A stretch of DNA of 64,000 nucleotides, taken from positions 298 to 64,297 of the forward strand of contig JAWANJ010000001.1 in NCBI GenBank assembly GCA_038895395.1. The letters are read 5' to 3'. The notes below the pieces were generated by a model. The model was given only the letters and a program-made list of their open reading frames with translations. It was not told the DNA's origin and ran no database searches. Both the position numbers and the translations under genes were made by a program. This document shows positions 1-58,098 of the stretch, piece by piece (within the stretch, counting starts at the first letter, position 1; the number at the start of each line of letters is the position of its first letter). Source of the stretch: Candidatus Iainarchaeum sp. GTDB taxonomy: Archaea > Iainarchaeota > Iainarchaeia > Iainarchaeales > DTGL01.

Positions 1-240
1 ATTGGTAAGGCAAAAACCTTTCAGACTATCTTTATTTGTGATGCCATCATTAACCCGATACTTCTTTGCAGGATAATGTGGAAAACTTCCACCACCATGA
101 GCTACTATGAGCCTTTTATATTTCAAAGTTGATCTTATTTCAGAGGCTAACCTTGCAATCATATCTGTTCTAGCTTTTTCCTTAATGCATTTGTTTGTTA
201 TTAGTGAACCGCCTAACTTAACCAAAACCAGTTCTTTCAA
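1..240 (-). CDS. ipk: isopentenyl phosphate kinase (amino-acid-kinase family), partial; C-terminus lies beyond the window start
   Basis: Manual minus-strand translation of 1..255 gives ...DILKELVLVKLGGSLITNK...LIVAHGGGSFPHYPAKKYRVNDG..., matching the IPK/amino-acid-kinase N-terminal motifs (LKLGGS, HGGGSFGH). No stop before position 1. The only start in frame is TTG at 240-238, which overlaps the TGA stop of the upstream gene (TTGA). Confidence 0.6.
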   Translation of the reverse strand, partial: MKELVLVKLGGSLITNKCIKEKARTDMIARLASEIRSTLKYKRLIVAHGGGSFPHYPAKKYRVNDGITNKDSLKGFCLTN

Positions 241-623
241 AATATCACCTTGGCTTTATCAGCGTCAACTGTTACAAACATGCCATTTTTTATTTTCCCT
301 ATCCTTACTTTATCAACGCAGGGTATTTCTGACAATATAGCACCTGCTGCAACTATAGCCTCACATTCTGCTAATACCATAGCAGCCGGCGCTTTGTTGT
401 TTTTCTTTAATCGATATATTGTATAGGTCCCTACTGTAGAACCTTTTCCATGTGGAAATACTAAAACTTTATCCGCAATACATTTTCCTTCAAGCTCATG
501 TCCTTTTTCTATAACTATGCCTGTTTCTGGATCCACACCACCAAAGAATGATATTGGCTGTTTAGTAACTAAGCACTCACCCTTGACTTTTCCAGAAGCT
601 ATCGTACGACCTTTTAAAATCAT
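237..623 (-). CDS. aconitase X small subunit-like (phosphomevalonate dehydratase small subunit, DUF126 family)
   Basis: 128-aa ORF directly downstream of the AcnX catalytic subunit with a 4-nt overlap. Size and operon position match the two-subunit AcnX-type mevalonate-5-phosphate dehydratase. Confidence 0.55.
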   Translation of the reverse strand: MILKGRTIASGKVKGECLVTKQPISFFGGVDPETGIVIEKGHELEGKCIADKVLVFPHGKGSTVGTYTIYRLKKNNKAPAAMVLAECEAIVAAGAILSEIPCVDKVRIGKIKNGMFVTVDADKAKVIF

Positions 624-1795
624 TTTATCGCCTCTTCAATGCACTCTTTTAATGATGCTATTCTAACCTTGAAATTGTTAGAACCCCTACCATAAAAACA
701 TGCCTTTGCAGAATTTGTCAACATATAGCCAAACCTGTTTTTAAGTGGAGCCACGGCTATGCATGTGTCACATATGATTTTTGCGCCTGCTTTTTCAATA
801 ATTTCAGTGTAGCCCATTGAATCAGCGATTTTTTTAACAGGCCTTGCACAAGTTATCCAAAACTCTTTTTTCACTTTTTTTCCTTTTAGCTCTTTTGCAA
901 TCTCACGTATTTCAACAATAGATGCGTGTGGACAACCTATTGCTATTAAATCAACGCTACCAGAATCACTTAAGGATTTTTTTGCTTTTTCAATATCCTT
1001 TCTTGTTATGTACACTTCTTTTTTCGGTGGCTTCACATTTTCAGGGGTTATATTTTCCATATGAAAAAGAGCGGTACCGCCAAAAGTTGCTATGGAAGCA
1101 CAAAAACTCTTAAGCTCATCTAAGCTAGCATGGCTTATGCCTTTAATGTAGGGTATTGAATTACCAATTTTTTCACCCAATGCTTTGCCAAATGCACCAA
1201 AGTCAGCCACGCCTGAAAGCTCAGCCTTTACCAAAACAGAGTACTTTGGCTTGCGATTTTTATCAAGATGAAAACCATATTCTGGTGTTTTGCCTGTAAG
1301 TGCACTAGCCAAACTTGAAAATCCGCTTTCTCTGTTAGTTCTAGCGCCGAGTACAGAGTTTGCGAAGCAAACAGCACTGCTCTCACTCCATGCTATATGA
1401 GAGCCATACTTTGGAATATTCCCTATCAAGTAAGGCGTGCAAGTACATGTGACTATTACCCCCATCTTCTTGAAAGCCTCTAAGATACGTTCTTGCTTTT
1501 CGACAAAATTTTTATCTATGCCTAGATTTTGCCAGTTTTCTAGATCTATGCCAGCGGGGTTTAAAGTTGTAAGTGGAACTCTTACCTTAGCGTCTTGGGC
1601 GAGTTCTTCAAGCAAGCTAAGGCCAGCGTCTCCCAGGTTTTGGTAACTAACGCCAGCAATCTGCACACTTTCAACTGGTATGAGTCTTTTTGCTGAGTAT
1701 ATGTTACCAAGTGCAACAAGCAGTTCCATTGCCTTTTTCGCAGCTTTTCCGTGTTTACCTTTAAGATATTCCTTTTCTTCGAAGCTTAGTTTCAT
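620..1795 (-). CDS. aconitase X catalytic (large) subunit-like; putative mevalonate 5-phosphate dehydratase
   Basis: 391-aa ORF embedded between the UbiD-like decarboxylase and the small-subunit gene inside the mevalonate operon. This is the architecture expected for archaeal AcnX (DUF521) phosphomevalonate dehydratase. Confidence 0.6.
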   Translation of the reverse strand: MKLSFEEKEYLKGKHGKAAKKAMELLVALGNIYSAKRLIPVESVQIAGVSYQNLGDAGLSLLEELAQDAKVRVPLTTLNPAGIDLENWQNLGIDKNFVEKQERILEAFKKMGVIVTCTCTPYLIGNIPKYGSHIAWSESSAVCFANSVLGARTNRESGFSSLASALTGKTPEYGFHLDKNRKPKYSVLVKAELSGVADFGAFGKALGEKIGNSIPYIKGISHASLDELKSFCASIATFGGTALFHMENITPENVKPPKKEVYITRKDIEKAKKSLSDSGSVDLIAIGCPHASIVEIREIAKELKGKKVKKEFWITCARPVKKIADSMGYTEIIEKAGAKIICDTCIAVAPLKNRFGYMLTNSAKACFYGRGSNNFKVRIASLKECIEEAIK

Positions 1796-3111
1796 TTCTT
1801 TTCACCAAGATATTTTTTAAGATCTACCTTTTCATAAGACACTCTCTTAAAATCATCCTTATTTTTGTTGGCGGGTATTGTGAGGTCGAACCCAACCTTG
1901 CATGTTATTCTGGTTTTTTGATCTGCGCTAGGATCAAGACTTGAGCCTTTTTGACCAGGATAGATATATAGTTGCTTGTCAGCTTGGAATCTAGTAGCTA
2001 AGGCCCATTCAACATCTTGCATGTTGTTTGCATCAATATCCTCATCTACAACAAAAACATGCTTGAGTGAACTATGACCTTTGAAAGCAGCTTTGACTAC
2101 TTTTTTTATTTGTTCATCATTTTCTTTGCGTATTTGTACTACAGCATGAAGCCATGAACAACCACCTTGCGTTATGTTTACATTTATGCATTTAGCAACT
2201 TTGTTAACTTCGTTAAATATTGTTGGTTCTCTTGGCATGCCCATAAGCAAGCCATGCTCATTACCACCAGGAAGAAGCGCATGCCAGATAGCATTTTTTC
2301 TGTGTGTTATTTTTTTTACTTTTAGAATAGGTTGCTTTCTAACAAGGTCCCTTGTACCAGTTAAGTCCAGAAACATACCTTCATTGGCAAGTTCATTCAT
2401 AGTAAGGGTGCCCTCAATAACAAACTCAGAGCTTGCCGGAACGTAAACATTTGCGAATTTTGCTTTTACAACATTAAAATCTTCTAAAGCGCTTGCAATT
2501 TCAAATTCAAATTGACCTATTGGTGGGCTGGTTGCACCAGCAAGTAGAACACTTGCTGGATTACCTATACAAACAGCAACGTCAAGCTCTCCGCCAGCTC
2601 TATTCAAAAATTCATATAGATTACGTTCGCAAACCCTTACTGAAAAATTCTTTTTGTCAAGCTGCATACATCTGTGAAATGATGCGTTCATTCCAAGTTC
2701 TTTGTCACGTGCAACGAAAACGCCAGATGTTATGTAGTTTCCACCATCGATTTTTGTATGCTTTAAAATTGGAAGTTTGTCAAGATCTATTTCTTCATCT
2801 TCAATTACAACCTCCTGACAAGGACCTTTCTTTGAAACCTTGAGCTTTTTTGGTTTATTTAGAGCATCAACCAGGATTCTTATTAGATCTTTTTCCTTGC
2901 AGTTAAAATATTTTGAGATGTAACGTTTTGATGAGAAAACATTTCCGGCAATCATAAAGTTGGATTCTCGAATATTTTCGAAAAGCACTGGTTTTCCATC
3001 TAATGCTTTTAGCACAGCTGCAGCTTCTAAATTTTTTGATACAGGCCTACTTATTTTTATTAGATCCCCCTCTTTTTCGAGTTTTTTTAAGAAGCTCCTA
3101 AAGTCCATCAT
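1792..3111 (-). CDS. UbiD-family decarboxylase; putative trans-anhydromevalonate 5-phosphate decarboxylase
   Basis: 439-aa ORF of UbiD size and character, located immediately downstream of UbiX (14-nt overlap) and upstream of AcnX in the mevalonate operon. Confidence 0.7.
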   Translation of the reverse strand: MMDFRSFLKKLEKEGDLIKISRPVSKNLEAAAVLKALDGKPVLFENIRESNFMIAGNVFSSKRYISKYFNCKEKDLIRILVDALNKPKKLKVSKKGPCQEVVIEDEEIDLDKLPILKHTKIDGGNYITSGVFVARDKELGMNASFHRCMQLDKKNFSVRVCERNLYEFLNRAGGELDVAVCIGNPASVLLAGATSPPIGQFEFEIASALEDFNVVKAKFANVYVPASSEFVIEGTLTMNELANEGMFLDLTGTRDLVRKQPILKVKKITHRKNAIWHALLPGGNEHGLLMGMPREPTIFNEVNKVAKCINVNITQGGCSWLHAVVQIRKENDEQIKKVVKAAFKGHSSLKHVFVVDEDIDANNMQDVEWALATRFQADKQLYIYPGQKGSSLDPSADQKTRITCKVGFDLTIPANKNKDDFKRVSYEKVDLKKYLGEKK

Positions 3112-3646
3112 CCCACCTCTTATACAGGTTATTTTTTACTCCAAGCAGATCAAGTATTTTGCCAACTATAAATGCTTCTAGGTCAGCAATGCTGCGTGGT
3201 TTAGAATAAAACCCAGGAGATAATGGAAATACAACTGCTCCATAAAGGGATATCTCATAGAGGTTCTTAAGCGTTGGTGGGCTCAGCGGAGTTTCCCTTA
3301 TGCAAACAATCAGCTTTTTTTTCTGTCGTAGCATGTTATCGGCACACCTAGCAATAAGAGTATCGGTATGTGCATTGGCTATATCACTAACTGTTTTTAC
3401 ACTAGCTGGAATGATTACCATAGCGTCTGTTATAAAACTAGAGCTAGATATGGAAGCTCCCAAATCATTGTTGTCGTGCATCTTTGACGCGTACCTTTCT
3501 AAGTTAGGCGCTTCTATTTCAGAAACTTTTTTAGACCATTCTGACATCACAAGGTGGGTTTCAATTTTTCTTTTTTTAAGTTCTTTGAGAAGCAACTTTG
3601 TATAGTTTAAACCACTTGCACCACATGCTGCAATTATTATTCGCAT
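3098..3646 (-). CDS. ubiX: UbiX-type flavin prenyltransferase (prFMN synthase)
   Basis: 182 aa. N-terminus MRIIIAACGASG... is the typical flavoprotein fold of the UbiX/Pad1 family. Adjacent to the UbiD-like gene. Confidence 0.8.
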   Translation of the reverse strand: MRIIIAACGASGLNYTKLLLKELKKRKIETHLVMSEWSKKVSEIEAPNLERYASKMHDNNDLGASISSSSFITDAMVIIPASVKTVSDIANAHTDTLIARCADNMLRQKKKLIVCIRETPLSPPTLKNLYEISLYGAVVFPLSPGFYSKPRSIADLEAFIVGKILDLLGVKNNLYKRWDDGL

Positions 3647-4629
3647 TCCTTGACACCCTCCACACCTATTTTAGTTATTATTGCTTGTGCCCCTGTTGAT
3701 TCTATGGCTTTTGCTATTTTTTTCTCTGTTCCATTTTTTGCTAGAGCAAACATTACACCGCCCCAGCCACCACCACTTAGCTTAGCGCCAAGAGCACCCG
3801 CATTTAAAGCTTCTTTTATGCAGTCATCGAGCTTTGGATGACTCAGGCCTAGTTTAGAAAGTATCTTTTGATTTTTGTTCATAAGCGAACCTAGTAAAGG
3901 TTCATCTTCCGTTTGAAGAGCTTTTTCTATTGAATTGCAAATCAAAGCAATCTTTTTGAATTGCTTCTGGACAAATTCAGGATATCTTCGAATTAAAGAG
4001 GGCATGTGCATACCAACGGTAAGAGCTGTTGGAGCTCTTATATTGGTGTTTCCTATAACAACACTAAATCTATGTACCCCAAGGTTTTCAAAGCTGAGAG
4101 AAATTTTGCCTTCTGATCCAATCTTTTGAATCTTGTGATAGCCACCAAAAGAGCTTGAAAGAATCTCACTGCCGGAAGCTTTACCACCATGTACCTTAAC
4201 TTGAAGAGGATAAAGATATTTGAAAAAATCTTCTTTTTTTATACCAAAATCAAAAAGAAGATTTAATGCATGTAGAGATGCACTTAGCACAGCAGTGCTT
4301 GAGCTAAGACCAGACTCAACAGGAACATCAGATTCTATGCTTAGCCTAATGCCTCTTTTAATACCATGTTTTTTAATCAGGATCTCAATTAAGTCAAAAA
4401 AGATGTATAACTCCTTTTTACCGTGTCTGTTCAAAACTTTTTCGGATTTTAAGGATGCCTTGGCTTTACCAAGCTCTCTGCTTTCCACTATGATTGATCT
4501 ACTTTTTAAAATTGAGGCTGTGCAATATGCTCTTAGGTCAACTGCGGTCACTACTGCCGGATAACCATAAACGACAGCATGCTCACCAGCAAAAAATATA
4601 TTTCCTGGAGCACTCGCCTTTACAGACAC
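3637..4629 (-). CDS. mvk: mevalonate kinase (GHMP kinase)
   Basis: 330 aa. N-terminal SAPGNIFFAGEHAVVYG matches the MVK motif APGKxxLFGEHAVVYG. GHMP-kinase Gly-rich ATP loop (LSSSTAV) is present. Confidence 0.8.
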   Translation of the reverse strand: MSVKASAPGNIFFAGEHAVVYGYPAVVTAVDLRAYCTASILKSRSIIVESRELGKAKASLKSEKVLNRHGKKELYIFFDLIEILIKKHGIKRGIRLSIESDVPVESGLSSSTAVLSASLHALNLLFDFGIKKEDFFKYLYPLQVKVHGGKASGSEILSSSFGGYHKIQKIGSEGKISLSFENLGVHRFSVVIGNTNIRAPTALTVGMHMPSLIRRYPEFVQKQFKKIALICNSIEKALQTEDEPLLGSLMNKNQKILSKLGLSHPKLDDCIKEALNAGALGAKLSGGGWGGVMFALAKNGTEKKIAKAIESTGAQAIITKIGVEGVKECE

Positions 4630-4655
4630 TTTAGAAACCTCTTTGATTGATAATA

Positions 4656-5057
4656 TTAACTTATAACTTTGAATTTATAACCATAGGTAATAGTGCCATA
4701 TTTGTCTGGTTCACCTACTCTCCTAAAAACCTTTTTTACTTTTGCACCAATCTTTATAGCTTCTGGTTCGGAGTCAACTATTTGTGCTAAAACCCTTGCT
4801 TTGTTTTCTAGCTCTATTAGGGCTAGGTAGTATGGCACCTCGTTTTTGAAACCTTCTGGTGGCACATATACTCTAGTGTAGCTTATTATTTTGCCAAACC
4901 TAGGCATATCCATTTGAACAAGTTTGCCTTTTCTTCTACAGTTGGGACATATTGCTCTGGGCGGGAAAAAAGCTTGCTTGCAGACTTCACAGTAGTTTCC
5001 TCTCAACAAGTATCTTTCAGGAAATCTTCTCCAGTTGAGAGGTGCAACGTTTTGCAC
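4656..5057 (-). CDS. DUF35 OB-fold/Zn-ribbon protein (scaffold partner of thiolase/HMG-CoA synthase)
   Basis: 133 aa with CxxC...CxxC ribbon (CEVCKQAFFPPRAICPNCRRKG). Sits 4 nt downstream of the thiolase, which is the conserved archaeal thiolase-HMGCS-DUF35 triad. Confidence 0.75.
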   Translation of the reverse strand: MQNVAPLNWRRFPERYLLRGNYCEVCKQAFFPPRAICPNCRRKGKLVQMDMPRFGKIISYTRVYVPPEGFKNEVPYYLALIELENKARVLAQIVDSEPEAIKIGAKVKKVFRRVGEPDKYGTITYGYKFKVIS

Positions 5058-5061
5058 AATA

Positions 5062-6231
5062 TCACCCTTTGAATTTTTTATAAATTGTTACAACCGCTGT
5101 AGCACCTGAACCACCGACATTGTGGCTCAAACCTATCTTTGCTTTTTTCACTTGGCGTTCCTCAGCCATCCCCATTAGCTGGTAATAGGCTTCGACTGCT
5201 TGAGCTACACCAGTAGCGCCAACGGGGTGTCCTTTTCCTTTTAGCCCACCACTTGGGTTTATAGGAATCTTTCCTTTAAGCGAGGTATATCCTTTTTCTG
5301 TTGCAATACCACCTTCACCTTTTTCAAAGAAACCAAGATCTTCAATTGCTAAGATCTCCGCTATTGTAAAACAATCATGCACTTCTGCAAAGTCAATATC
5401 CTTTGGGCTTAGCCCTGTTTTTTTGTACGCTTTTTGTGCAGCCATTCTTGTGGCTTTTAGCTCCACCAAACTTTTCCTTCCAGTTATGGCCAAGGTATCT
5501 GAAGCTTGTTCTGATGCAAGTATTTCAACGCCTTTAAGGCCGAGTTCTTCAGCTTTTTGGTTTGAACATAAAATAAGTGCTGCTGCTCCATCCGTTATTG
5601 GTGAACAATCTAGCACTTTTATTGGTTCTGCTACATATCCTGACTTCATAACTTCTTCTATGGTTATTATGCGATGGAACTGTGCATTGGGGTTTAGCAT
5701 TGCATTTGCGTGGTTTTTAACAGCTACAGCTGCCATTTGTTCTTCGGTTGTGCCAAACTCATTCATATGCGCTCTTGCTAAAAGCGCATACAAACTTGGA
5801 AAAGTAGCACCGTGAAAGAGCTCAATCTCTTGGTCTCCTGCGCCACCTAAAGCAAAGCTAACTCCTTCTGTGCTAAGCTCAGTCATCTTTTCAACACCAC
5901 CAACAGCAACAATATCATGGACACCACTTTTTATTGCGAGATAAGCAGTCCTTAATGCAACACCACCAGAAGCACACGCTGCTTCGACTCTTGTACTAGG
6001 TATTGGATTTAAACCAAGCTGGTCTGCTATCAAAGCACCTATGTGCTCCTGCCCTATGAATCTCCCTGATGCCATACAACCGCCATAAATAGCTTCAATT
6101 TTTTCTCCTTGAAGGCCTGAGCTGCTTATTGCCTTTATTGCTGCATCTAGTATAAGTTCCCTAAACGATAGATCCCAGTGTTCATCAAATTTTGTAACAC
6201 CGGCCCCAACTATTACCACCATTTTATTCAC
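5062..6231 (-). CDS. acetyl-CoA C-acetyltransferase (acetoacetyl-CoA thiolase)
   Basis: 389 aa, archaeal thiolase (SCP-x-type) fold with active-site cysteines. Immediately downstream of HMG-CoA synthase. Confidence 0.85.
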   Translation of the reverse strand: MNKMVVIVGAGVTKFDEHWDLSFRELILDAAIKAISSSGLQGEKIEAIYGGCMASGRFIGQEHIGALIADQLGLNPIPSTRVEAACASGGVALRTAYLAIKSGVHDIVAVGGVEKMTELSTEGVSFALGGAGDQEIELFHGATFPSLYALLARAHMNEFGTTEEQMAAVAVKNHANAMLNPNAQFHRIITIEEVMKSGYVAEPIKVLDCSPITDGAAALILCSNQKAEELGLKGVEILASEQASDTLAITGRKSLVELKATRMAAQKAYKKTGLSPKDIDFAEVHDCFTIAEILAIEDLGFFEKGEGGIATEKGYTSLKGKIPINPSGGLKGKGHPVGATGVAQAVEAYYQLMGMAEERQVKKAKIGLSHNVGGSGATAVVTIYKKFKG

Positions 6232-7272
6232 CTACAAACTTTTTATCTTTCGTCTGTGTTTAAGATATATCGCATAGTCAATATACTCTTTTTCTTTTAT
6301 CATCTCAAGCACAGGTATTTTTGCTCTACGCTCAGAGATAGCATCAGTGGTGTTTATAACAAAAGCATCACTGCCAGCACCACTTCCATAGCTAACAGCA
6401 AGTATTTTTTGACCTGGCTTTGCAATATCAAGAATGCTTGCTAAGCCTATCATGGTAGCACCGCTGTATGTATTTCCTATGTAAGGTGTTAGCAAACCTT
6501 GTTCTATTTTTTTTGAATCTATTCCAAGAATGCTAGCAACCTTTAAAGGAAATTTTCCATTTGGCTGATGAAAAACAGCATAGTCAAAATCGGATGCTTT
6601 ATAACCAGTATCTTCAAGGATCATCTTGGCTGCACCCAAAACATGTTTGAAGTAAGCCTCTGCTGTAAATCTGCCTGTATGCTCAGGAAAATCTGCTTTT
6701 GGTCTACGCCAAAAATCAGGCATGTCACTTGTGTAGCTGCAGGTTGCCTCAATTTCGGCAATGACCTCATCTTTGTTATCGCCTATGAAAAAGGCACCAG
6801 CACCACTTGCAGCTGTAAATTCTAAAGCATCGTTTGGTTTGCTTTGGGCTGTGTCAGAACCTATGGCTAAGCCAACATCAATCATCTTTGCTTTTTTTAA
6901 TGCATAGCATATTTGCATACCAGCAGTACCTGCTTTACAAGCAAACTCAAGGTCAACAGCAAAGTATCTGTTTGTTGTACCTATGGCATCACCTACGATG
7001 CTAGAAGTTGGGTTAACTGCGTAGGGGTGACTTTCAGAACCAACATAAATTGCATTAATTCTTTTTGGATCTATAGAGAAGTCTTCTATGCCACGTCTTG
7101 CTGCCTCAACTGCTAAAGTGCATGCATCTTCGTCTATAGCAGCGACAGCTTTTTCATAAACACCAATCCCACCAGAACTCTTTTGCCATACTCGCTCGAT
7201 TTCGCTAACTTTTATTCTTAATTTAGGTATATATGCGCCATACCCAATAATTCCAACGACCATCTCAAGCAC
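6232..7272 (-). CDS. hydroxymethylglutaryl-CoA synthase
   Basis: 346 aa. N-terminal MVVGIIGYGAYIPKLRIKVSEI is typical of archaeal HMGCS. Overlaps the HMGR stop by 8 nt. Confidence 0.85.
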   Translation of the reverse strand: MLEMVVGIIGYGAYIPKLRIKVSEIERVWQKSSGGIGVYEKAVAAIDEDACTLAVEAARRGIEDFSIDPKRINAIYVGSESHPYAVNPTSSIVGDAIGTTNRYFAVDLEFACKAGTAGMQICYALKKAKMIDVGLAIGSDTAQSKPNDALEFTAASGAGAFFIGDNKDEVIAEIEATCSYTSDMPDFWRRPKADFPEHTGRFTAEAYFKHVLGAAKMILEDTGYKASDFDYAVFHQPNGKFPLKVASILGIDSKKIEQGLLTPYIGNTYSGATMIGLASILDIAKPGQKILAVSYGSGAGSDAFVINTTDAISERRAKIPVLEMIKEKEYIDYAIYLKHRRKIKSL

Positions 7273-8530
7273 CTTGCTTAATTTTTTTCAGGATTTCTCT
7301 TGCAAATGCCTCATTTATTTGGTTATTTTCAATCATGGCCATGGCGACCTTTTCTATTTCGTCTCCTGTTGCACCAGCTTGAATTGCTATGTTTTTGGCA
7401 TGAAGTCGCATATGACCATATTGGATTCCTGTTGTTGCGAGAGCGTAGAGTGCAGCAAAATTTTGAGCTAAACCAACAGCACCCATAACTTCTGCAAGTT
7501 CTTTTGCACTTTTTACCCCCAATATCTTTAAGCACAATTTTGCCATTGGATTTACCCTTGTTGAGCCACCCACTATACCAACTTGAATAGGTATTTCAAT
7601 TTCGCCAACCAAGTTGCCTTGTTTATCTTTCCAGTATTTTGTTAGTGGTTTATATTTACCCGACAGGCTAGCATAGCTATGAGCTCCGGCTTCTAAAGCT
7701 CTGAAATCATTTCCAGTAGCTATTGCTACAGCGTCAATGCCATTCATTATACCCTTGTTGTGTGTTGTTGCCCTAAAGCGATCAGCACAAGCAAATTTCC
7801 AAGCTTTTATTATATCTTCCACCACTCCCTTAGAGGAATCTTTTTCTAGCTCTACCTTGGAAAAAACAGCCCTTGCTTTAACCAGTCTATAGATGGCAAG
7901 ATTTGATATTATTTTAATGCCTGTCTTACATTTACAAATCTGTTCTATGTAAGGTGCTACACGCTCACACATTGTATTTATAGCATTTGCACCCATCGCA
8001 TCTTTGACATCAACTAGCAAATGCAAAACCATGAATTCCTTAAATCTCCTGATTTCTATATCTTTTGCACCACCGCCATAAGAAACAAGTATCTTATCTG
8101 TTGAATTTGCAATTTCCAATATCTTTTCTTTGTTCTGTTTTATTAACCTGGTAACCTTTTGCTGTTTGCTGCCCTTTGCAAAGATTTGTACTTGTCCAAT
8201 CATGATTTGCTCTGTTGCTTTAGATTCAAAACCTCCTAAAAACCTAGCAAACTTTGCACCCTTGCTTGCTGCAGCAACAACACTTGTTTCTTCTATGGCC
8301 ATTGGCACAAGATAGTCCTTTCCGTTTATTAGAAAATGGGTTGCAATGCCCAATGGCAAACCAAAAATGCCGACAACATTTTCAATCATCTTGTCTGCTA
8401 TTTGAAAGCTAATAGGTTTAAGTTCTTTAAGCAATGTGACCTCTTCTTCTGAAAGCCCACACACATATTTTAATATTTGAAGCCTTTCTTCAAAAGTTTT
8501 ATTATAAAAACCACTTATTTTAGAACCCAT
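7265..8530 (-). CDS. hmgA: HMG-CoA reductase (class I)
   Basis: 421 aa, class-I-like HMGR in length and character (specific catalytic motifs not traced), first gene of the operon. An archaeal TATA-like element (reverse complement of ~8570-8585) lies upstream. Confidence 0.85.
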   Translation of the reverse strand: MGSKISGFYNKTFEERLQILKYVCGLSEEEVTLLKELKPISFQIADKMIENVVGIFGLPLGIATHFLINGKDYLVPMAIEETSVVAAASKGAKFARFLGGFESKATEQIMIGQVQIFAKGSKQQKVTRLIKQNKEKILEIANSTDKILVSYGGGAKDIEIRRFKEFMVLHLLVDVKDAMGANAINTMCERVAPYIEQICKCKTGIKIISNLAIYRLVKARAVFSKVELEKDSSKGVVEDIIKAWKFACADRFRATTHNKGIMNGIDAVAIATGNDFRALEAGAHSYASLSGKYKPLTKYWKDKQGNLVGEIEIPIQVGIVGGSTRVNPMAKLCLKILGVKSAKELAEVMGAVGLAQNFAALYALATTGIQYGHMRLHAKNIAIQAGATGDEIEKVAMAMIENNQINEAFAREILKKIKQGA

Positions 8531-8785: not shown

Positions 8786-9520
8786 ATGGTGCATGTGATG
8801 CCAAAAATCATAGGCAACAAACCCAAGTTTTATGAAAAAGCTAGGGCTTGGTATAAAAAACAAGGCAAGATAGATGTGCCTGGCTTTAAAAGGATTGAAA
8901 TCAAAAACAATAAGAACAGTCTTTTAGTGGTTTTTAATGGCAAGCGTTATGAGCTTAGGAAGTTTGGTCAAGGTTACGCCAACATATTAAGAAAAAAACC
9001 AATATATACATTTGTATCTGAACAAGGACGCATTTTAGTTGTTACAGAGTTTCTCCATAAAACACTCACAAAAGAACTTGTTCTTGAAATTGACGCATAC
9101 CATGCTGATTTACTTGCTGGGGACGTTGGTTTTAGAAGATTGTTGCATACAAACGTAAACATAATACTAGATCTTGAGATAGCGTACGATAGTTACTTCT
9201 ACTGGTGTCAGGGCGTTAACAAAAAACATTTAACAGGGCAAGCACCTGAATGGCTTAAAGGCAAAGGGTTTGGTTTGTTTGTAGAGTCTCTAAGACAAAT
9301 TAGGCTAGCAAAGCTTGGTGTTAGTAAATGGTTTGCTTCAATAATACCTGAAAAAGAAAGTTTGGAATTTGCTGAGCTTAGAGGTTTTCGTAAGCCAACT
9401 TTGGAAGAGATACTTTTGCTAGCGAAAGCAACATTGCGAAAGGAGCCTGACAAACGTACAATAAGACAAATGTTGAAAATCTATCATGTGAAAGACATTC
9501 CACCAATAAAAGGCAAATGA
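8786..9520 (+). CDS. hypothetical protein (244 aa), no recognisable motif
   Basis: Long ORF with coding-like composition, ending 4 nt before the ThyX-like gene. No catalytic motif identified. Confidence 0.4.
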   Translation: MVHVMPKIIGNKPKFYEKARAWYKKQGKIDVPGFKRIEIKNNKNSLLVVFNGKRYELRKFGQGYANILRKKPIYTFVSEQGRILVVTEFLHKTLTKELVLEIDAYHADLLAGDVGFRRLLHTNVNIILDLEIAYDSYFYWCQGVNKKHLTGQAPEWLKGKGFGLFVESLRQIRLAKLGVSKWFASIIPEKESLEFAELRGFRKPTLEEILLLAKATLRKEPDKRTIRQMLKIYHVKDIPPIKGK

Positions 9521-24768: not shown

Positions 24769-25197
24769 ATGAACAAAGAAAAAAGCGCAGGTGCAGTTGT
24801 TTTTTATGGTTTTGACCCTAGATTGTATTTGCTTTTGCATTACTCGAAAGGACATTGGGACTTTCCAAAAGGGCATGTTGAAAAAAATGAAAGCGACCTT
24901 GAGGCAATGCTTCGAGAGCTAAAAGAAGAAACAGGCATAAGTGACGTAGTTGTAATTCCAGGGTTTCGAGAAACTATATCGTATTTTTTTTCAGAAAATG
25001 GAAGAAAGGTCAGCAAAACAGTTACTTTGTTTCTTGTCAAGAGTAAAACACAAAACGTGGTTTTATCTAGCGAGCATGTTGGTTACGCTTGGCTTCCTTA
25101 TGAAGAAGCTTTAAAGAAAATAACTTTTAAGAATGCTGCAGAAGTATTAAAAAAAGCCAACGATTTTTTGAAACAGAAACGCCTTTTTGAGACTTAA
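24769..25197 (+). CDS. Nudix hydrolase
   Basis: Canonical Nudix box GHVEKNESDLEAMLRELKEETGI. Confidence 0.75.
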   Translation: MNKEKSAGAVVFYGFDPRLYLLLHYSKGHWDFPKGHVEKNESDLEAMLRELKEETGISDVVVIPGFRETISYFFSENGRKVSKTVTLFLVKSKTQNVVLSSEHVGYAWLPYEEALKKITFKNAAEVLKKANDFLKQKRLFET

Positions 25198-26221
25198 AAT
25201 TTATTGTTCCTATTTTAAAATTTTTCCATGGTTGCTATATTTCATGCATGAGTATAGGAAAGATTACTTAACCGATGAATGGGTCATAATAGCTACTTCA
25301 AGAATGCAAAGACCTCACCACTTAAAAACAGTAGTAAAGAGAACTCCAAAAAGCAAGTGTCCTTTTTGTCCAGAGCACGAATCTTGGACACCACAGGAAA
25401 TAAAACGTTATCCGGAAGGTTCAAAAAAATGGAGAAAAAGGGTGGTACCAAACAAATTCCCAGCAGTGGTTAATAAAGGGAATATAAACTATGTTAAAGA
25501 AAATTTTTTGGAAAGAATGACTGCTTTTGGCGTACATGAGGTTATTATAGAAACACCGGATCACACGAAAGATTTGTGTGATTTGAGCGAGGATGAAATT
25601 GCGGAGTTATTTTTTGTTTATAAGGAATGTTTCGAAAGAGTAGCAAAGGATAAGAGAATTTCAGAGGTTGTTATTTTTAAAAACCAAGGCGCAAATGCCG
25701 GGGCAAGTCTTTCTCACGCACATTCACAGATAATTGCAACAAACAGGATATCAGAACGCTTTGGCTCAAAGCTTAAGGCATTTGTGAAATACAAGCAAAA
25801 GCACAAGTTTTGCCCATATTGTAAGATTATAGAAATTGAAGAAAAATCAAAACGTGCTGTTTATTCTGGCAAGAATGTTGTTGCTTTTACACCTTTTGCA
25901 TCAAGAGCCGCGTATGAGCTTTGGCTTTTCCCGAGAAAGCACACCCCAAATATTTTGAACCTAGACATTGAAACTATGAAAGAATTTGCTGCAGTGCTTA
26001 AGAGGGTTTTGATTTCTTTAAGAAAAATAAACGCTGACTTTAATTATTTTATCCATATGCCATGCAAGGGCGACTTTCATATGCACATGTGCATATTGCC
26101 CAGAGTTATTCAACGTGCAGGTTATGAAGAAGCAACTGAGTGCGTAATAAATGTCGTTTCTCCAGAAGACGCTGCTGCTTTATATAGAAAAAATATTAAA
26201 GACCTAAAATGCCAGAAGTAA
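25187..26221 (+). CDS. galactose-1-phosphate uridylyltransferase family (HIT-like nucleotidyl transferase/phosphorylase)
   Basis: Zn site CPFCPEHE...RVVPNKFPAV and the active-site SHAHSQII (HxHxQ) motif. Confidence 0.75.
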   Translation: MRLKIYCSYFKIFPWLLYFMHEYRKDYLTDEWVIIATSRMQRPHHLKTVVKRTPKSKCPFCPEHESWTPQEIKRYPEGSKKWRKRVVPNKFPAVVNKGNINYVKENFLERMTAFGVHEVIIETPDHTKDLCDLSEDEIAELFFVYKECFERVAKDKRISEVVIFKNQGANAGASLSHAHSQIIATNRISERFGSKLKAFVKYKQKHKFCPYCKIIEIEEKSKRAVYSGKNVVAFTPFASRAAYELWLFPRKHTPNILNLDIETMKEFAAVLKRVLISLRKINADFNYFIHMPCKGDFHMHMCILPRVIQRAGYEEATECVINVVSPEDAAALYRKNIKDLKCQK

Positions 26222-28707: not shown

Positions 28708-29944
28708 ATGGCTGGGCTAAAATTAAATGAAATTGTTAAGAACATTGAGGAGGTTAATTTCAGCGAGGTTGAAAACAAGGTTGTTTTGCTAAGAGTTGAT
28801 TTAAACAGCTCAGTTAAGGATGGAAAGCTTCTAAAAAGCCCAAGAATTGTGGGTCACTTTCGTACCATAAAAACCTTTTTAGATCACAAGGCCAGGTTAG
28901 TTATACTAGCACATCAGGGACGAAAAAGGCAGAGAAGATTTTATCTCTTTGAAACAGCATGTTGAAATGTTAAAGCAAATGCTAGGAGATGAAATCGAAT
29001 TCTGTACTTGGGACGAAGATTATGTTGCTAAGATAAAAAACCTTAAACCTGGCAAGGCCTTAATGCTAGAAAACACCAGGTTTTTAGACTTTGAAACCAA
29101 TGAGATAAGCAAAGAAGAGCACGCAAAGAATCCTGTGATTCAGAAGATTGCTTCAGTCAGCGACATGTTTGTGTTGGATGCTTTAAGTGTGTCACATAGG
29201 TGCCATGCGAGCGTTGTTGGTTTTATACCTTTGTTGAAAAGCTACGCTGGGCCTATTTTATATTCTGAACTTAAGGCTTTGGCAAAGATGTCTAAAATAA
29301 AGGGCAAATCAACCTTCGTGTTAGGTGGTATGAAACCGGATGACTCTATTTATATAATGGAAAAGATGCTTAGTTCAGGAAAGGCGAGCAAAGTACTATT
29401 AGGTGGAGGCTTAGGTGAGTTAGCGTTAATTGCTAATGGTGTAAAACTTGGTGGTAAAGAGCAGGTACTTAAAGATAAAGGCATGATGGAATTTGTACCA
29501 AAACTTAGAGATCTTATTAAGAAGTATAAAAAAGAGATTGTATTACCACAAGATTTAGCGATTGAAAAAAACACCCTTCGCGAGGAGGTTTCTATAAAGA
29601 GTTTACCTGTAAACGAAATGACTTTTGACATAGGTGAAAAAACAGCAGACCTATATTCTAAAGAGATAAAAAAAGCGAAGGTTATAATTGCAAACGGTCC
29701 AGTAGGCAAATTCGAAGCAGAGTACTTTTCGTTTGGCACAAGAAAGGTTCTTGATGCAATGGCAAATTCAAAAGGATTTAGTTTGGTTGGCGGAGGAGAC
29801 ACAGTAACAGCGATAGCCAGACTGGGTTTCAAAGAAAGTGAGTTCGACCATGTAAGCTTGGCAGGGAAAGCCTTGCTTGAGCTGCTTGCTGGTGAAGAGT
29901 TGTTTGGTCTTGAAGCTCTTGCCGAAGCAAAGTACAAAAAATAA
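28708..29944 (+). pseudogene. pgk: phosphoglycerate kinase interrupted by a +1 frameshift in an A5 homopolymer (28923-28927); could equally be a sequencing error
   Basis: ORF 28708-28965 is the PGK N-terminus (…VLLRVDLNSSVKDGKL…LVILAHQGR). ORF 28949-29944 is the rest. Removing one A from cgaAAAAAggc restores ...HQGRKGEDFISLKQHVEML... Confidence 0.7.
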
Positions 29945-40513: not shown

Positions 40514-40586
40514 GGGCCCGTAGCTCAGCTGGCAGAGCACTGGACTTTTAATCCAGGTGTCGCGGGTTCAAATCCCGTCGGGCCCA
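40514..40586 (+). tRNA. tRNA-Lys (TTT)
   Basis: GGGCCCG...CGGGCCC acceptor stem, anticodon loop CTTTTAA, T arm GCGGGTTCAAATCCCGT. Confidence 0.9.
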
Positions 40587-40587
40587 T

Positions 40588-40678
40588 GGGGCTGTGGTGT
40601 AGTCTGGTCTAGCATACCAGCTTTGGGAAATTAAATTCAAAAAAGCTGGAGACCCGGGTTCAAATCCCAGCAGCCCCA
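40588..40678 (+). tRNA. tRNA-Pro (TGG) with a ~16-nt intron after position 37
   Basis: Acceptor GGGGCTG/CAGCCCC. Anticodon stem CCAGC/GCTGG flanks TTTGGG + aaattaaattcaaaaa + A. T arm CCGGG-TTCAAAT-CCCAG has one C·A mismatch. Confidence 0.7.
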
Positions 40679-40696
40679 ATAAATTGAGGTGAGTTT

Positions 40697-57123: not shown

Positions 57124-57195
57124 GCGGCTGTGGTCTAATGGCAGGATACCAGCTTCCCAAGCTGGTTGTCCGGGTTCAAATCCCGGCAGCCGCAA
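57124..57195 (+). tRNA. tRNA-Gly (CCC)
   Basis: GCGGCTG...CAGCCGC acceptor, anticodon arm CCAGC-TTCCCAA-GCTGG, T arm CCGGGTTCAAATCCCGG. Confidence 0.9.
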
Positions 57196-57214
57196 AATTT
57201 GGTGGTGTTTTAAA

Positions 57215-57757
57215 TTGGATGACTTTTTCAATGATGAAAATGAAGAACTTGAGTATTTTGACTCTGCAGGATTTTTCAAAGGTTTTTCGAATAGAAAAAC
57301 TATCCATGAAAATGGCTTTTGGCATAAAGGGGTTCATGTTTGGGTTTTTAACAGCAAAGGACAACTTTTCCTAAAAAAAAGATCTAAATACAAGAAGATA
57401 CACCCTTTACACTGGGAAGACGTTGGAGAACACCTAAAACCAAATGAAGACTTTAAAGACGCGGCGTTAAGGGGCTTAAAAGAGGAACTTAACGTTGATG
57501 AGAGCAAAATAAAAGAATTGTATAAAGTTAAAAGTTTGAAGATGGAGTTTGGTAAAGATCGCGAGTTCATAGAGCTTTGGTTTTGCGTATATGATGGTCC
57601 TTTACAAGAATCTAAAGAAAGTTTTGGTGGGAGATTTTTTGAAATTGAAGAAATTAAAAACATGCTAAAAAACAGATCGATGATTACACCATGGTTTAAG
57701 GAACTTTTTTACTGGTGTTTGAAGGAAGTAGCATGGCCAAAGAAAAAATTTCAATGA
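57215..57757 (+). CDS. Nudix hydrolase with features of type-1 isopentenyl-diphosphate isomerase
   Basis: Nudix-like box GEHLKPNEDFKDAALRGLKEELNV. N-terminal H-x2-G-x3-H (IHENGFWHKG), KRSKYKKIHPLHW, EFIE and C-terminal ITPWFKELFYW parallel IDI-1 landmarks. The IDI-1 catalytic Cys is not present. Confidence 0.5.
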   Translation: MDDFFNDENEELEYFDSAGFFKGFSNRKTIHENGFWHKGVHVWVFNSKGQLFLKKRSKYKKIHPLHWEDVGEHLKPNEDFKDAALRGLKEELNVDESKIKELYKVKSLKMEFGKDREFIELWFCVYDGPLQESKESFGGRFFEIEEIKNMLKNRSMITPWFKELFYWCLKEVAWPKKKFQ

Positions 57758-58098
57758 AGGAAGAGATGCGCATAGTTGCCTTGAATCGAATCCACAAACT
57801 TTTTGAACAAGCTGAAAAAAATTTTACTCAAAGGCCTGACAGAAGCAAGCGTTATGTTGAACTTGCAAGAAAAATAGCAATGCGCCATAATATTAAATTT
57901 GATGTTAAGCTTAAAAAAAAGTTTTGTAAAAAATGCGGTGCATATCTTGTAATTGGAAAAAACGCAAAGATCAGAGTTTCTGGAAGATTATTAAAGATAA
58001 CATGTTGCGAGTGTAACTTCACGAGAAAAATTGGGTTAAAAGAGAAAAAGAGCACTAAAGATGTCGGGAAAAACATACGAAATAACGATCCCAAATAA
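57733..58098 (+). CDS. rnp4: RNase P protein component 4 (Rpp21/Rpr2)
   Basis: ...RYVELARKIAMRHNIKF...CKKCGAYLVIGKNAKIRVSGRLLKITCCECNF, the Rpr2 Zn-ribbon signature. Confidence 0.7.
   Translation: MAKEKISMKEEMRIVALNRIHKLFEQAEKNFTQRPDRSKRYVELARKIAMRHNIKFDVKLKKKFCKKCGAYLVIGKNAKIRVSGRLLKITCCECNFTRKIGLKEKKSTKDVGKNIRNNDPK

What the first reader, a model, noticed from the sequence alone, without database searches (positions are those of the whole stretch)
57215..57757. Nudix protein resembling type-1 isopentenyl-diphosphate isomerase but lacking the catalytic cysteine; no type-2 IDI seen in window
The protein shares several IDI-1 landmarks with the E. coli enzyme. These are the paired N-terminal His (IHENGFWHKG versus EAHRQGLLHRA), a KRSKYKKIHPLHW segment, a Glu-x-Glu segment and the C-terminal TPW motif. 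Where IDI-1 has NSxCxHP it has VGEHLKP. The window carries the whole mevalonate pathway but no FMN-dependent IDI-2, which archaea normally use. This Nudix enzyme could be a divergent IDI, or an isoprenoid-phosphate or IPP-related hydrolase. It sits between tRNA-Gly and the RNase P protein gene.
Basis: inference. Interest (0 to 1): 0.5.

Follow-up and report, generated by a model that had tools for sequence, protein, structure and literature searches.

The report
IDI-like Nudix hydrolase, not the isomerase
This archaeal gene encodes a Nudix protein that looks like type-1 isopentenyl-diphosphate isomerase but is most likely a hydrolase, and it is not the cell's missing isomerase, because a normal type-2 isomerase lies just beyond the window's edge in close relatives and is on record from what is probably the same genome.

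Summary
The ORF (57215-57757, +, 180 aa) and the quoted motifs are real. The host is a Candidatus Diapherotrites (Iainarchaeota, DPANN) MAG.

The protein passes Pfam NUDIX. It scores far below both IDI-1 cut-offs (48 vs 127 bits; 42 vs 105.8). It keeps the IDI-1 metal and pocket residues (H31, H37, H73, D115, E117, W160). It lacks Cys67 (Gly71) and Tyr104.

It keeps both Nudix "EE" glutamates. It also has an invariant Glu72 that covaries with loss of the "RE" glutamate (E/G 104, G/E 26, mixed 5).

The "missing IDI" premise fails:
- The mevalonate operon runs off the window's left edge; bases 1-240 encode the start of IPK.
- Two close relatives continue with IPK and a bona fide IDI-2.
- One of those contigs also carries the Nudix ortholog.
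- An IDI-2 (MEM4662967.1) probably belongs to this same MAG.

The protein belongs to a large uncharacterised subfamily (more than 12,000 hits). In DPANN, CPR and Archaeoglobi its members sit inside mevalonate operons, beside true IDI-1, IPK or UbiD.

Best reading: an IPP/DMAPP-type diphosphatase, possibly supplying DMAP to UbiX. The substrate is inferred, not shown. Interest is moderate.

The parts
57215..57757 (+). IDI-like Nudix gene (180 aa, TTG start). It belongs to the 'EH...RG' subfamily.
   Evidence: ORF. Pfam NUDIX 51.7 bits. IDI-1 models are sub-threshold. 100% identical to MEM4662452.1. AF2 model pLDDT 93 with a Nudix fold.
57305..57325 (+). His31...His37, equivalent to the IDI-1 metal ligands His25 and His32.
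   Evidence: Alignment to the verified E. coli IDI sequence. H37 is invariant and H31 is kept in at least 90% of the clade.
57428..57496 (+). Modified Nudix box E72-x5-E78-x7-R86-G87-L88-x-E90-E91-x-N93-V94. Gly71 precedes it at the Cys67 position. His73 corresponds to IDI-1 His69.
   Evidence: Read directly from the sequence. G71, E72, H73, E78, R86, G87, E90 and E91 are invariant in 23 relatives. Positions 72 and 87 covary across the family.
57557..57574 (+). D115-R116-E117...E120, the segment aligned to IDI-1 E114-N115-E116.
57686..57694 (+). T158-P159-W160, equivalent to the IDI-1 S/T-P-W161 pocket tryptophan.
   Evidence: Invariant in the clade. Trp is kept in 89/104 EH/RG members but only 4/26 GH/RE members.
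57124..57194 (+). tRNA-Gly(CCC), 20 nt upstream. It is part of a conserved tRNA-Gly - Nudix - Rpr2 block (context only).
57715..58098 (+). Rpr2/RPP21 RNase P protein gene, co-directional and overlapping the Nudix 3' end (context only).
   Evidence: Pfam Rpr2. The same gene pair is found in L001, L002, L003 and L127.
3098..3646 (-). UbiX-family flavin prenyltransferase (prFMN synthase). It is the proposed consumer of DMAP; the link to the Nudix is inferred.
   Evidence: NF004685 192 bits (cut-off 188) and TIGR00421 177 bits (cut-off 108.9).
1792..3111 (-). UbiD-family decarboxylase, placed in the operon as anhydromevalonate phosphate decarboxylase. It needs prFMN.
1..240 (-). First 80 codons of isopentenyl phosphate kinase, cut by the window's edge. 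This shows the mevalonate operon continues outside the window.
   Evidence: NF040647 E=4.6e-19, and 75% identity to the IPK of L005.
237..8530 (-). Archaeal-type mevalonate operon: AcnX small and large subunits, UbiD, UbiX, MVK, DUF35, thiolase, HMG-CoA synthase and HMG-CoA reductase.
   Evidence: The gene order is identical in L005 and L006, where IPK and IDI-2 follow.

Best explanation
The gene encodes a Nudix-fold enzyme from the IDI-1/YfcD/DR_0079 branch of the superfamily. It belongs to a large, unnamed and uncharacterised subfamily defined by the motif x-[G/A/S]-E-H-x4-E-x7-R-G-L-x-E-E-L-G. It is not the organism's isopentenyl-diphosphate isomerase. That role is filled by a type-2 IDI encoded after IPK, at the end of the same mevalonate operon that runs off the window.

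Proposed mechanism (inferred, not shown):
- The protein binds a small diphosphate ester in an IDI-like pocket. Arg27, Arg56 and Lys60 would hold the diphosphate. Trp160 would line the hydrophobic end. The His31/His37/His73/Asp115/Glu117 metal site is retained.
- It hydrolyses the diphosphate to a monophosphate, using divalent metals held by the Nudix-box carboxylates Glu90 and Glu91 plus Glu72.
- Glu72 appears to replace the lost glutamate of the 'RE' position, because the two positions swap together across the family.

The most likely substrates are IPP and DMAPP, giving IP and DMAP. The products could feed the UbiX flavin prenyltransferase, which makes the prFMN needed by the UbiD-type decarboxylase of this archaeal mevalonate pathway. 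With IPK they could also balance the IP/IPP pool.

Confidence differs by step: 'not the IDI' about 0.9, 'a hydrolase' about 0.7, 'the substrate is IPP/DMAPP' about 0.45.
For: Not the IDI:
- IDI-1 models score 48.3/127 and 42.3/105.8 bits.
- The Cys67 position is Gly in all 23 clade members. Only 1 of 135 top family members has Cys there. Tyr104 is not kept.
- Relatives with the same operon order have IPK followed by an IDI-2 that passes TIGR02151. The Nudix ortholog and the IDI-2 lie on one contig, JAOAJX010000001.1. Contig-length matches give two further cases (105,952 bp and 277,387 bp).
- MEM4662967.1 is an IDI-2 (383 bits). It lies within 565 accession numbers of the window's MEM4662402/452.
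- In Aenigmatarchaeota operons the EH/RG protein sits directly beside a protein that passes the IDI-1 cut-offs (178.4 > 127). The two are therefore distinct functions.

A hydrolase:
- Pfam NUDIX is passed.
- Glu90 and Glu91 are both invariant, whereas IDI-1 keeps only one of these.
- Box positions 0 and 15 covary: E/G 104, G/E 26, mixed 5, and never G/G or E/E.

An isoprenoid substrate:
- The IDI-1 diphosphate-binding residues, metal ligands and Trp161 equivalent are conserved. Trp is kept in 89/104 EH/RG members against 4/26 GH/RE members.
- 8 of 20 archaeal loci and 1 of 6 CPR loci from a genome scan place a family member in or next to mevalonate genes, in at least five different arrangements: HMGCS-Nudix-thiolase, (MVD-like)-IPK-Nudix, Nudix-IPK, DMD-MVK-PMK-Nudix-IDI-1, and UbiD-Nudix-HAD.
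- Natural fusions of a bona fide IDI-1 with an IDI-like Nudix domain exist (P0025).

Precedent:
- Nudix enzymes NudJ, NudB, NudF and NudI dephosphorylate DMAPP to the DMAP used for prFMN (PMC12359138).
- Plant Nudix hydrolases and IPK cycle IP and IPP (PMC6779861).
- From my own knowledge, not verified here: a Methanosarcina mazei Nudix hydrolase was reported as IPP/DMAPP-specific (Ishibashi et al., Biosci Biotechnol Biochem 2022). NCBIfam has a Methanosarcina Nudix model, NF041653, which archaeal EH/RG members match over its full length at 52-63 bits, below its cut-off of 300.
- The window encodes UbiX and UbiD.
Against: - No member of the EH/RG subfamily has been assayed, and no solved structure belongs to it. 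The best PDB profile hits are YfcD, IDI-1 and DR_0079, all remote.
- The target clade is tight (at least 54% identity internally) but only 30-42% identical to every other member. The mevalonate-operon copies are 30-36% identical. The context argument is therefore family-level, not ortholog-level.
- In the target's own lineage the gene is never next to mevalonate genes. It sits in a tRNA-Gly - Nudix - Rpr2 - SRP54 housekeeping block.
- In 94 bacterial loci the recurrent neighbours show no isoprenoid theme: PLP enzyme, aminotransferase, HAD, PHO4.
- The target scores only 17 bits on the Methanosarcina Nudix model.
- The only characterised hydrolase in this branch, DR_0079, prefers cytidine nucleotides.
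- Members also occur in operons of the eukaryote-type pathway, which needs no prFMN. DMAP supply therefore cannot be the universal role.
Confidence: 0.5

Rival explanations
1. It is a house-cleaning Nudix hydrolase that acts on nucleotides, for example cytidine di- and triphosphates as in DR_0079, or other NDP/NTP derivatives. Its metabolic role would be unrelated to isoprenoids.
For: - DR_0079, the one biochemically characterised hydrolase in the IDI-like branch, prefers CDP/CTP (PMC5389931). It is a structural neighbour (TM 0.78-0.86).
- Bacterial family members have no isoprenoid neighbours.
- In its own lineage the target is not near mevalonate genes.
Against: - DR_0079 has the canonical G...RE box, not the EH...RG form.
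- The EH/RG group keeps the IDI-1 pocket Trp and the full His/Glu metal site, which GH/RE members largely lack.
- Family members are repeatedly embedded in mevalonate operons in DPANN, CPR and Archaeoglobi.
Confidence: 0.25
2. It is a divergent, cysteine-independent type-1 IDI that interconverts IPP and DMAPP, or the monophosphates IP and DMAP. Glu72 or another residue would replace Cys67.
For: - All IDI-1 metal ligands, Glu116 and Trp161 are retained.
- A Glu is invariant next to the Cys67 position.
- The best-scoring named families are the IDI-1 models.
- Family members associate with mevalonate genes.
Against: - The scores are less than half of the IDI-1 cut-offs.
- Cys67 and Tyr104 are both absent across the family.
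- A bona fide IDI-2 co-occurs in the same genomes, and a bona fide IDI-1 in the same operons.
- Both 'EE' carboxylates typical of hydrolases are kept, whereas true IDI-1 keeps only one.
Confidence: 0.07
3. It is an RNA-directed Nudix enzyme, for example a 5'-end pyrophosphohydrolase, functionally tied to tRNA processing and RNase P.
For: The block tRNA-Gly - Nudix - Rpr2, co-directional and abutting or overlapping, is conserved from 100% down to 42% protein identity within Diapherotrites.
Against: - RppH models score only 14-23 bits.
- The fold neighbours are YfcD, IDI-1 and DR_0079 rather than RppH.
- The block lies in a generally syntenic housekeeping region (SRP54, prefoldin, eIF6, ribosomal proteins), so adjacency may be historical.
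- Other family members lie in mevalonate operons.
Confidence: 0.08
4. It is a non-catalytic ligand-binding or regulatory Nudix-fold protein.
For: The canonical Nudix box is broken at two positions. Non-enzymatic Nudix proteins are known.
Against: All the putative metal-binding carboxylates and histidines are invariant or nearly so across thousands of homologues, and they show compensatory covariation. This is typical of an active site.
Confidence: 0.05

Closest known systems
Type-1 isopentenyl-diphosphate isomerase (E. coli Idi, PDB 1NFS/1I9A; TIGR02150, NF002995)
   Same: - Same Nudix-derived fold with the N-terminal extension (Foldseek TM 0.70-0.83).
- Same metal ligands: H25/H32/H69/E114/E116 correspond to H31/H37/H73/D115/E117.
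- Same diphosphate-binding Arg and Lys residues, and the same pocket tryptophan (W161 corresponds to W160).
   Different: - No catalytic Cys67 (Gly71) and no Tyr104.
- Keeps both Nudix-box 'EE' glutamates and adds Glu72.
- HMM scores are less than half of the cut-offs.
- Co-exists with a genuine IDI in the same genomes or operons.
E. coli YfcD (PDB 2FKB, putative Nudix hydrolase, function unknown)
   Same: It is the best structural match (TM 0.79/0.88, rmsd 2.0 Å) and the best PDB hit for the subfamily profile (101.6 bits). It is an IDI-like Nudix without the catalytic Cys.
   Different: YfcD has the canonical G...REAEEELG box, and the position equivalent to His69 is not a histidine (alignment). 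The target scores 22.6 bits against the YfcD cut-off of 152.
Deinococcus radiodurans DR_0079 (PDB 1Q27/2O5F), a pyrimidine (d)NDP/(d)NTP Nudix hydrolase
   Same: It is in the IDI-like branch of the Nudix fold (TM 0.78-0.86; 76.8 bits) and is a proven hydrolase.
   Different: It has the canonical box GX5EX7REX2EEXNU and a nucleotide substrate. The pocket Trp and the EH...RG signature are not shared by the GH/RE group, whose box form DR_0079 has.
Methanosarcina-type Nudix hydrolase (NCBIfam NF041653). From my own knowledge, reported as IPP/DMAPP-specific and proposed to supply DMAP for prFMN.
   Same: It is an archaeal, IDI-like Nudix protein. EH/RG family members align to the model over its full length at 39-63 bits. 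The genomic background is the same: an archaeal mevalonate pathway with UbiX and UbiD.
   Different: The target scores 17.1 bits against a cut-off of 300, so it is not an ortholog. The biochemical report could not be read in the library.
Functional analogues: E. coli NudJ/NudB/NudF/NudI and plant AtNudx1/AtNudx3
   Same: They are Nudix enzymes that convert DMAPP or IPP to DMAP or IP. They feed UbiX/prFMN, or balance the IP/IPP pool together with IPK (PMC12359138; PMC6779861).
   Different: They are ordinary short Nudix proteins without the IDI-like N-terminal extension, His triad or pocket Trp. They are only distantly related (NudJ 23 bits, AtNudx1 25 bits to the subfamily profile).

Membership tests
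Type-1 IDI (TIGR02150 / NF002995) | The whole-protein HMM score reaches the curated equivalog cut-off. | tested here: not met
   42.3 vs 105.8 bits and 48.3 vs 127 bits. As a control, an Aenigmatarchaeota xCCSHP paralogue passes (151.3 and 178.4 bits).
Type-1 IDI (TIGR02150 / NF002995) | Catalytic cysteine (E. coli Cys67, motif NSxCxHP). | tested here: not met
   Gly71 in the target. Gly is invariant in 23 clade members. Among 135 top family members the position is G, A or S, with one Cys.
Type-1 IDI (TIGR02150 / NF002995) | Tyr104, which assists Glu116. | tested here: not met
   Leu108 in the target, and the position is variable in the family.
Type-1 IDI (TIGR02150 / NF002995) | Metal site His25/His32/His69/Glu114/Glu116 and pocket Trp161. 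| tested here: met
   H31, H37, H73, D115 (conservative change), E117 and W160.
Type-1 IDI (TIGR02150 / NF002995) | IPP-DMAPP isomerase activity. | not testable with these tools
   Needs an enzyme assay or complementation.
Nudix superfamily (Pfam PF00293) | The Pfam NUDIX score is above the gathering threshold, and the protein has the Nudix fold. | tested here: met
   51.7 vs 21.1 bits. AF2 pLDDT 93, and all top Foldseek hits are Nudix-fold proteins.
Nudix hydrolases (canonical) | Nudix box GX5EX7REUXEEXGU. | tested here: inconclusive
   The target has E72-X5-E78-X7-R86-G87-L88-X-E90-E91-X-N93-V94. The first G is replaced by E, and the E after R is replaced by G. The final G is N in the target but G in most relatives. 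The first two changes covary across the family (104 E/G, 26 G/E, 5 mixed), which suggests compensation. Catalytic competence was not shown.
Methanosarcina-type Nudix hydrolase (NF041653) | The HMM score reaches the equivalog cut-off. | tested here: not met
   17.1 vs 300 bits. Other EH/RG members score 39-63 bits.
YfcD (NF011922) | The HMM score reaches the equivalog cut-off. | tested here: not met
   22.6 vs 152 bits.
Type-2 IDI (TIGR02151), as the organism's real isomerase | An IDI-2 gene is present in the window. | tested here: not met
   tblastn with a close relative's IDI-2 gives no hit in the window. No FMN_dh domain was found in the 50 ORFs scanned with Pfam.
Type-2 IDI (TIGR02151), as the organism's real isomerase | An IDI-2 gene is present in the genome or lineage. 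| tested here: met
   L005 and L006 carry IDI-2 at 378.7 bits (cut-off 281.3), downstream of IPK in the same operon order. MEM4662967.1 scores 383.1 bits and lies in the same accession block as the window's proteins. That it comes from the same assembly is inferred, not proven.

The most novel reading that the evidence does not exclude
The EH/RG proteins are cysteine-independent isomerases acting on the monophosphates. They would convert the pathway intermediate isopentenyl phosphate directly into dimethylallyl phosphate for UbiX. They would use the retained IDI-1 metal site and Glu117, with the relocated Glu72 standing in for Cys67. This would be a new enzyme activity and a dedicated branch from the archaeal mevalonate pathway to prFMN.
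Probability: 0.05. Interest if true: 0.8.

Novelty: new variant of a known kind. Interest (0 to 1): 0.35.

Why it matters
For this window the practical result is negative but useful. The apparent hole in the pathway (no IDI) is an artefact of where the window ends, and the Nudix protein should not be annotated as an isomerase. JGI pipelines already label some family members 'isopentenyl-diphosphate isomerase'.

Beyond that, the gene belongs to a very large, unnamed subfamily, with more than 12,000 representatives at E<=1e-3. The subfamily combines the IDI-1 metal site and pocket with hydrolase-type carboxylates and a relocated Nudix-box glutamate. In DPANN archaea, CPR bacteria and Archaeoglobi it is built into mevalonate operons.

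If these proteins are the dedicated IPP/DMAPP diphosphatases, two things would follow. They would explain where UbiX gets DMAP in organisms that use the UbiD-dependent archaeal mevalonate pathway. They would also add an accessory step (IP/IPP cycling with IPK) to pathway reconstructions and to engineered archaeal mevalonate pathways.

Tried and rejected
- **Exact look-ups.** Look-ups of the target, of AcnX, of P0001 and of P0296 in the contig index found nothing. The window's own contig beyond the 64 kb, and the 15,331-bp contig with the IDI-2, could therefore not be read. The same-genome claim rests on accession numbering and on relatives.
- **The search for related loci.** A degenerate DNA pattern for the EH...RGLxEELG motif was used instead.
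- **Literature.** Searches for the Methanosarcina Nudix paper failed. It is cited from memory only.
- **Bacterial neighbours.** Clustering of bacterial neighbour genes gave lineage-specific neighbours with no common theme.
- **Covariation tree.** A crude NJ tree needed 15 EG/non-EG changes. I do not trust this topology enough to claim many independent swaps.
- **Structure.** The afdb50 fold library was unavailable. Model coordinates are not exposed, so the Glu72-Gly87 distance could not be measured.
- **HAD homology.** I asked whether ORF 8786-9520 is the HAD hydrolase that flanks the operon in relatives. It is not homologous.
- **Generic Nudix reading.** 'Generic ADP-ribose pyrophosphatase' was considered and rejected. 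No ADP-ribose family scores, and the fold neighbours are IDI-1, YfcD and DR_0079.
Full report
**Observation.** The ORF at 57215-57757 (+) is real. It has a TTG start and encodes 180 aa. It is identical to GenBank MEM4662452.1, 'MAG: NUDIX domain-containing protein [Candidatus Diapherotrites archaeon]', on a 69,991-bp contig. tRNA-Gly(CCC) lies 20 nt upstream at 57124-57194. A co-directional Rpr2/RPP21 gene overlaps the 3' end.

The protein passes Pfam NUDIX (51.7 bits, E=1.2e-13). Its best-scoring named families are the two IDI-1 equivalog models, but at 48.3 and 42.3 bits against cut-offs of 127 and 105.8. E. coli IDI-1 is the best PDB sequence match (E about 5e-5). In that alignment Cys67 is replaced by Gly71 and His69 is kept as His73.

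- The 'E. coli' string EAHRQGLLHRA is not the E. coli sequence.
- The residues aligned to E114-x-E116 are D115-R116-E117.
- The window does not contain the whole pathway (see below).

**What the window encodes.** The minus strand from 8530 down to 237 holds HMG-CoA reductase, HMG-CoA synthase, thiolase, DUF35, mevalonate kinase, a UbiX flavin prenyltransferase, a UbiD-family decarboxylase, and the large and small AcnX subunits. By established knowledge of the pathway (Hayakawa et al. 2018; summarised in PMC11816158), this is the archaeal anhydromevalonate-phosphate version of the mevalonate pathway.

Bases 240-1 on the same strand encode the first 80 residues of isopentenyl phosphate kinase. 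They match NF040647 at E=4.6e-19 and are 75% identical to a relative's IPK. The operon therefore runs off the left edge of the window. No IDI-2 is present in the 64 kb. tblastn with a close relative's IDI-2 gives no hit, and no FMN_dh domain was found in the 50 ORFs scanned with Pfam.

**The 'missing IDI' is an edge effect.** Homologues of the AcnX small subunit led to two closely related MAGs. In GCA_026413945.1 (L005) and GCA_038886995.1 (L006) the gene order is the same as in the window. In both it continues with IPK (NF040647, 218 bits in L005) and, 0.2-0.9 kb further on, a 334-aa protein. That protein passes the type-2 IDI equivalog TIGR02151 (378.7 bits, cut-off 281.3).

The L005 contig, JAOAJX010000001.1, also carries the 76%-identical ortholog of the Nudix gene (L001/L124). 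Two further cases follow from matching contig lengths:
- Nudix P0015 and IDI-2 P0305, both on a 105,952-bp contig.
- Nudix P0018 and IDI-2 P0308, both with a 277,387-bp longest contig.

For the window's own MAG the evidence is indirect. The AcnX small subunit is MEM4662402.1 and the Nudix protein is MEM4662452.1. They are 50 accession numbers apart, which matches the roughly 50 genes between them. MEM4662967.1, on a 15,331-bp contig, is a Diapherotrites type-2 IDI (383.1 bits) and is 80% identical to the L005 enzyme. That it comes from the same assembly is an inference from the accession block.

Independently, a published survey lists an Iainarchaeota genome with the archaeal-type pathway as IDI2=1 and IDI1=0 (PMC11052028, Table S3).

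**What the protein is.** Twenty-two close homologues, almost all from Diapherotrites, form a tight clade. Invariant residues are H37, G71, E72, H73, E78, R86, G87, E90, E91, E120 and T158-P159-W160.

A profile search of 1.8 billion representative proteins found 12,339 relatives at E<=1e-3. I aligned the 135 single-domain proteins among the top 150 to the verified E. coli IDI sequence. The results by IDI-1 position:

| IDI-1 position | Residue in the family (n=135) |
|---|---|
| Lys21 | Arg in 125 |
| His25 | His in 124 |
| His32 | His in 132 |
| Arg51 | Arg in 135 |
| Lys55 | Lys in 112 |
| His69 | His in 130 |
| Glu87 | Glu in 135 |
| Glu116 | Glu in 107 |
| Trp161 | Trp in 96 |
| Cys67 | Gly, Ala or Ser (one Cys) |
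| Tyr104 | not kept |

Unlike IDI-1, the family keeps both glutamates of the Nudix 'EE' pair.

Box position 0 (Gly in canonical Nudix enzymes and in IDI-1) and position 15 (the Glu of 'RE') covary. The counts are E/G in 104 proteins, G/E in 26, and mixed in 5, with never G/G or E/E. I read this as relocation of a metal-binding carboxylate. That is an inference, because the model's coordinates could not be inspected. A crude NJ tree cannot tell how many independent swaps occurred. The pocket tryptophan is kept in 89/104 E/G proteins but only 4/26 G/E proteins.

The AF2 model is confident (pLDDT 93). Its nearest solved structures are YfcD, E. coli and human IDI-1, and DR_0079, all at 17-24% identity. 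The subfamily profile hits the same three groups at 77-102 bits, and nothing else above 38 bits. All EH/RG members tested fail the IDI-1, YfcD and Methanosarcina Nudix cut-offs. The subfamily is therefore unnamed and has no characterised or crystallised member.

**Genomic context of the family.** All 120 contain a true family member. They come from Pseudomonadales and other Gammaproteobacteria, Chloroflexota, CPR bacteria, DPANN archaea, Archaeoglobi and Thermoplasmata.

In bacteria the recurrent neighbours are lineage-specific and show no isoprenoid theme. In archaea and CPR bacteria, 8 of 20 and 1 of 6 loci respectively carry mevalonate genes within the 8-kb locus. The arrangements differ:
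- HMGCS - Nudix - thiolase - DUF35, with overlapping genes, in two Iainarchaeum MAGs (L025, L116).
- MVD-like - IPK - Nudix (L064).
- Nudix - IPK in Micrarchaeota (L060, L083; these are weak family members).
- UbiD - Nudix - HAD, with UbiX nearby, in Archaeoglobi JdFR-42 (L069).
- DMD - MVK - PMK - EH/RG Nudix - IDI-1 in two Aenigmatarchaeota (L053, L073).
- A complete mevalonate cluster followed by two IDI-like genes in a Daviesbacteria MAG (L036).

In the Aenigmatarchaeota operons the adjacent xCCSHP protein passes the IDI-1 cut-offs (178.4 > 127). The EH/RG protein is therefore a separate function that accompanies a real isomerase. Natural fusions of a bona fide IDI-1 with an IDI-like Nudix domain also exist (P0025).

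**Limits of this inference.** The target clade is only 30-42% identical to any other member, including the mevalonate-operon copies. In its own lineage the gene always sits in a tRNA-Gly - Nudix - Rpr2 - peptidase A24 - SRP54 block. This holds even for a 42%-identical Diapherotrites homologue. The link to isoprenoid metabolism is therefore family-level.

**Mechanism proposed.**
- Shown: Nudix fold; retained IDI-1 metal site and pocket residues; retained and relocated hydrolase carboxylates; absence of the isomerase Cys and Tyr; co-existence with genuine IDIs.
- Inferred: the enzyme binds a C5 prenyl diphosphate as IDI-1 does, but hydrolyses it to the monophosphate.

Nudix enzymes that make DMAP from DMAPP for UbiX/prFMN are known in E. 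coli (PMC12359138). Nudix/IPK cycling of IP and IPP is known in plants (PMC6779861). From memory, not verified here, a Methanosarcina mazei Nudix hydrolase was reported as IPP/DMAPP-specific. The window's UbiX and UbiD give an obvious need for DMAP.

Rivals are a nucleotide-directed hydrolase like DR_0079 (0.25), a Cys-independent isomerase (0.07), an RNA-directed enzyme linked to RNase P (0.08), and a non-catalytic protein (0.05).

**Verdict.** The headline interpretation, that this protein might be the organism's IDI because IDI-2 is absent, is refuted. The fallback reading of an IPP-related hydrolase is the best-supported one but remains untested. The protein is a member of a large, uncharacterised variant of the IDI-like Nudix hydrolases. 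Interest is moderate (0.35).

Noticed in passing
window 1-240 (-): This stretch encodes the N-terminal 80 residues of isopentenyl phosphate kinase, cut by the window's edge. The mevalonate operon continues outside the window. In relatives it ends with IPK and then IDI-2.
   Followed up: yes
L019 5153-5692 (+); L036 7012-7545 (-); L064 2737-3297 (-): These are a third kind of IDI-like protein. It lacks Cys67 (motifs TASTHP and SPVSHV; the L019 copy has no His there) but has a Cys immediately before the E-N-E motif (CENE). It always sits next to an EH/RG Nudix gene in CPR bacteria and Iainarchaeum. It scores 76-78 bits on NF002995, below the cut-off. It might be an isomerase with a relocated cysteine.
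   Followed up: partly
P0025, P0042 (IDI-1 + IDI-like Nudix); P0024 (tandem EH/RG + EH/RG; L128 8001-9023): Two-domain proteins exist in the family. Some fuse a bona fide IDI-1 (SCCSHP; 270 bits on NF002995) to a canonical-box IDI-like Nudix domain. Many other top hits are tandem duplications of 320-360 aa.
   Followed up: partly
window 57124-58098; L001 9913-10908; L127 7192-8820; L066 2761-4131; L002 9244-10853: The block tRNA-Gly - Nudix - Rpr2 (RNase P protein) is conserved in Diapherotrites down to 42% Nudix identity. In the window and in L001 the tRNA is only 16-20 nt from the Nudix start codon. This suggests a shared transcript.
   Followed up: partly
L069 1349-4069 (+); 13 Chloroflexia loci such as L027 6225-7771; L053 4569-5806 (-): EH/RG or GH/RE Nudix genes are repeatedly paired with a HAD-family phosphatase on the same strand. 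In L053 a HAD domain and a GH/RE Nudix domain look like one gene split by a frameshift, inside a mevalonate operon. A Nudix plus a HAD enzyme could take a diphosphate all the way to the alcohol.
   Followed up: no
window 24769-25197 (+) and 25187-26221 (+): There is a second, ordinary 142-aa NUDIX gene (no family cut-off reached). It overlaps the start of a GalT/HIT-like nucleotidyltransferase gene, which is sub-threshold for galT.
   Followed up: partly
window 40587-40679 (+): ARAGORN reports a 93-nt tRNA of undetermined identity, with a two-base 'anticodon' gg. It starts directly after tRNA-Lys (40514-40586). It may be an intron-containing or otherwise atypical archaeal tRNA.
   Followed up: no
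window 28949-29944 (+): The phosphoglycerate kinase ORF matches the Pfam PGK model only from position 68 of 379. There is a 245-nt gap after the upstream GAPDH gene. The true start, or a frameshift, may lie upstream.
   Followed up: no
window 9525-11045 (+): The ThyX (Thy1) ORF is 506 aa with two matched stretches, about twice the usual length. The relatives in L005 and L006 have the same long form (497-498 aa).
   Followed up: no
window 8786-9520 (+): This 244-aa ORF lies between HMG-CoA reductase and ThyX and has no Pfam or NCBIfam match. Relatives have an unrelated HAD hydrolase at this position.
   Followed up: partly
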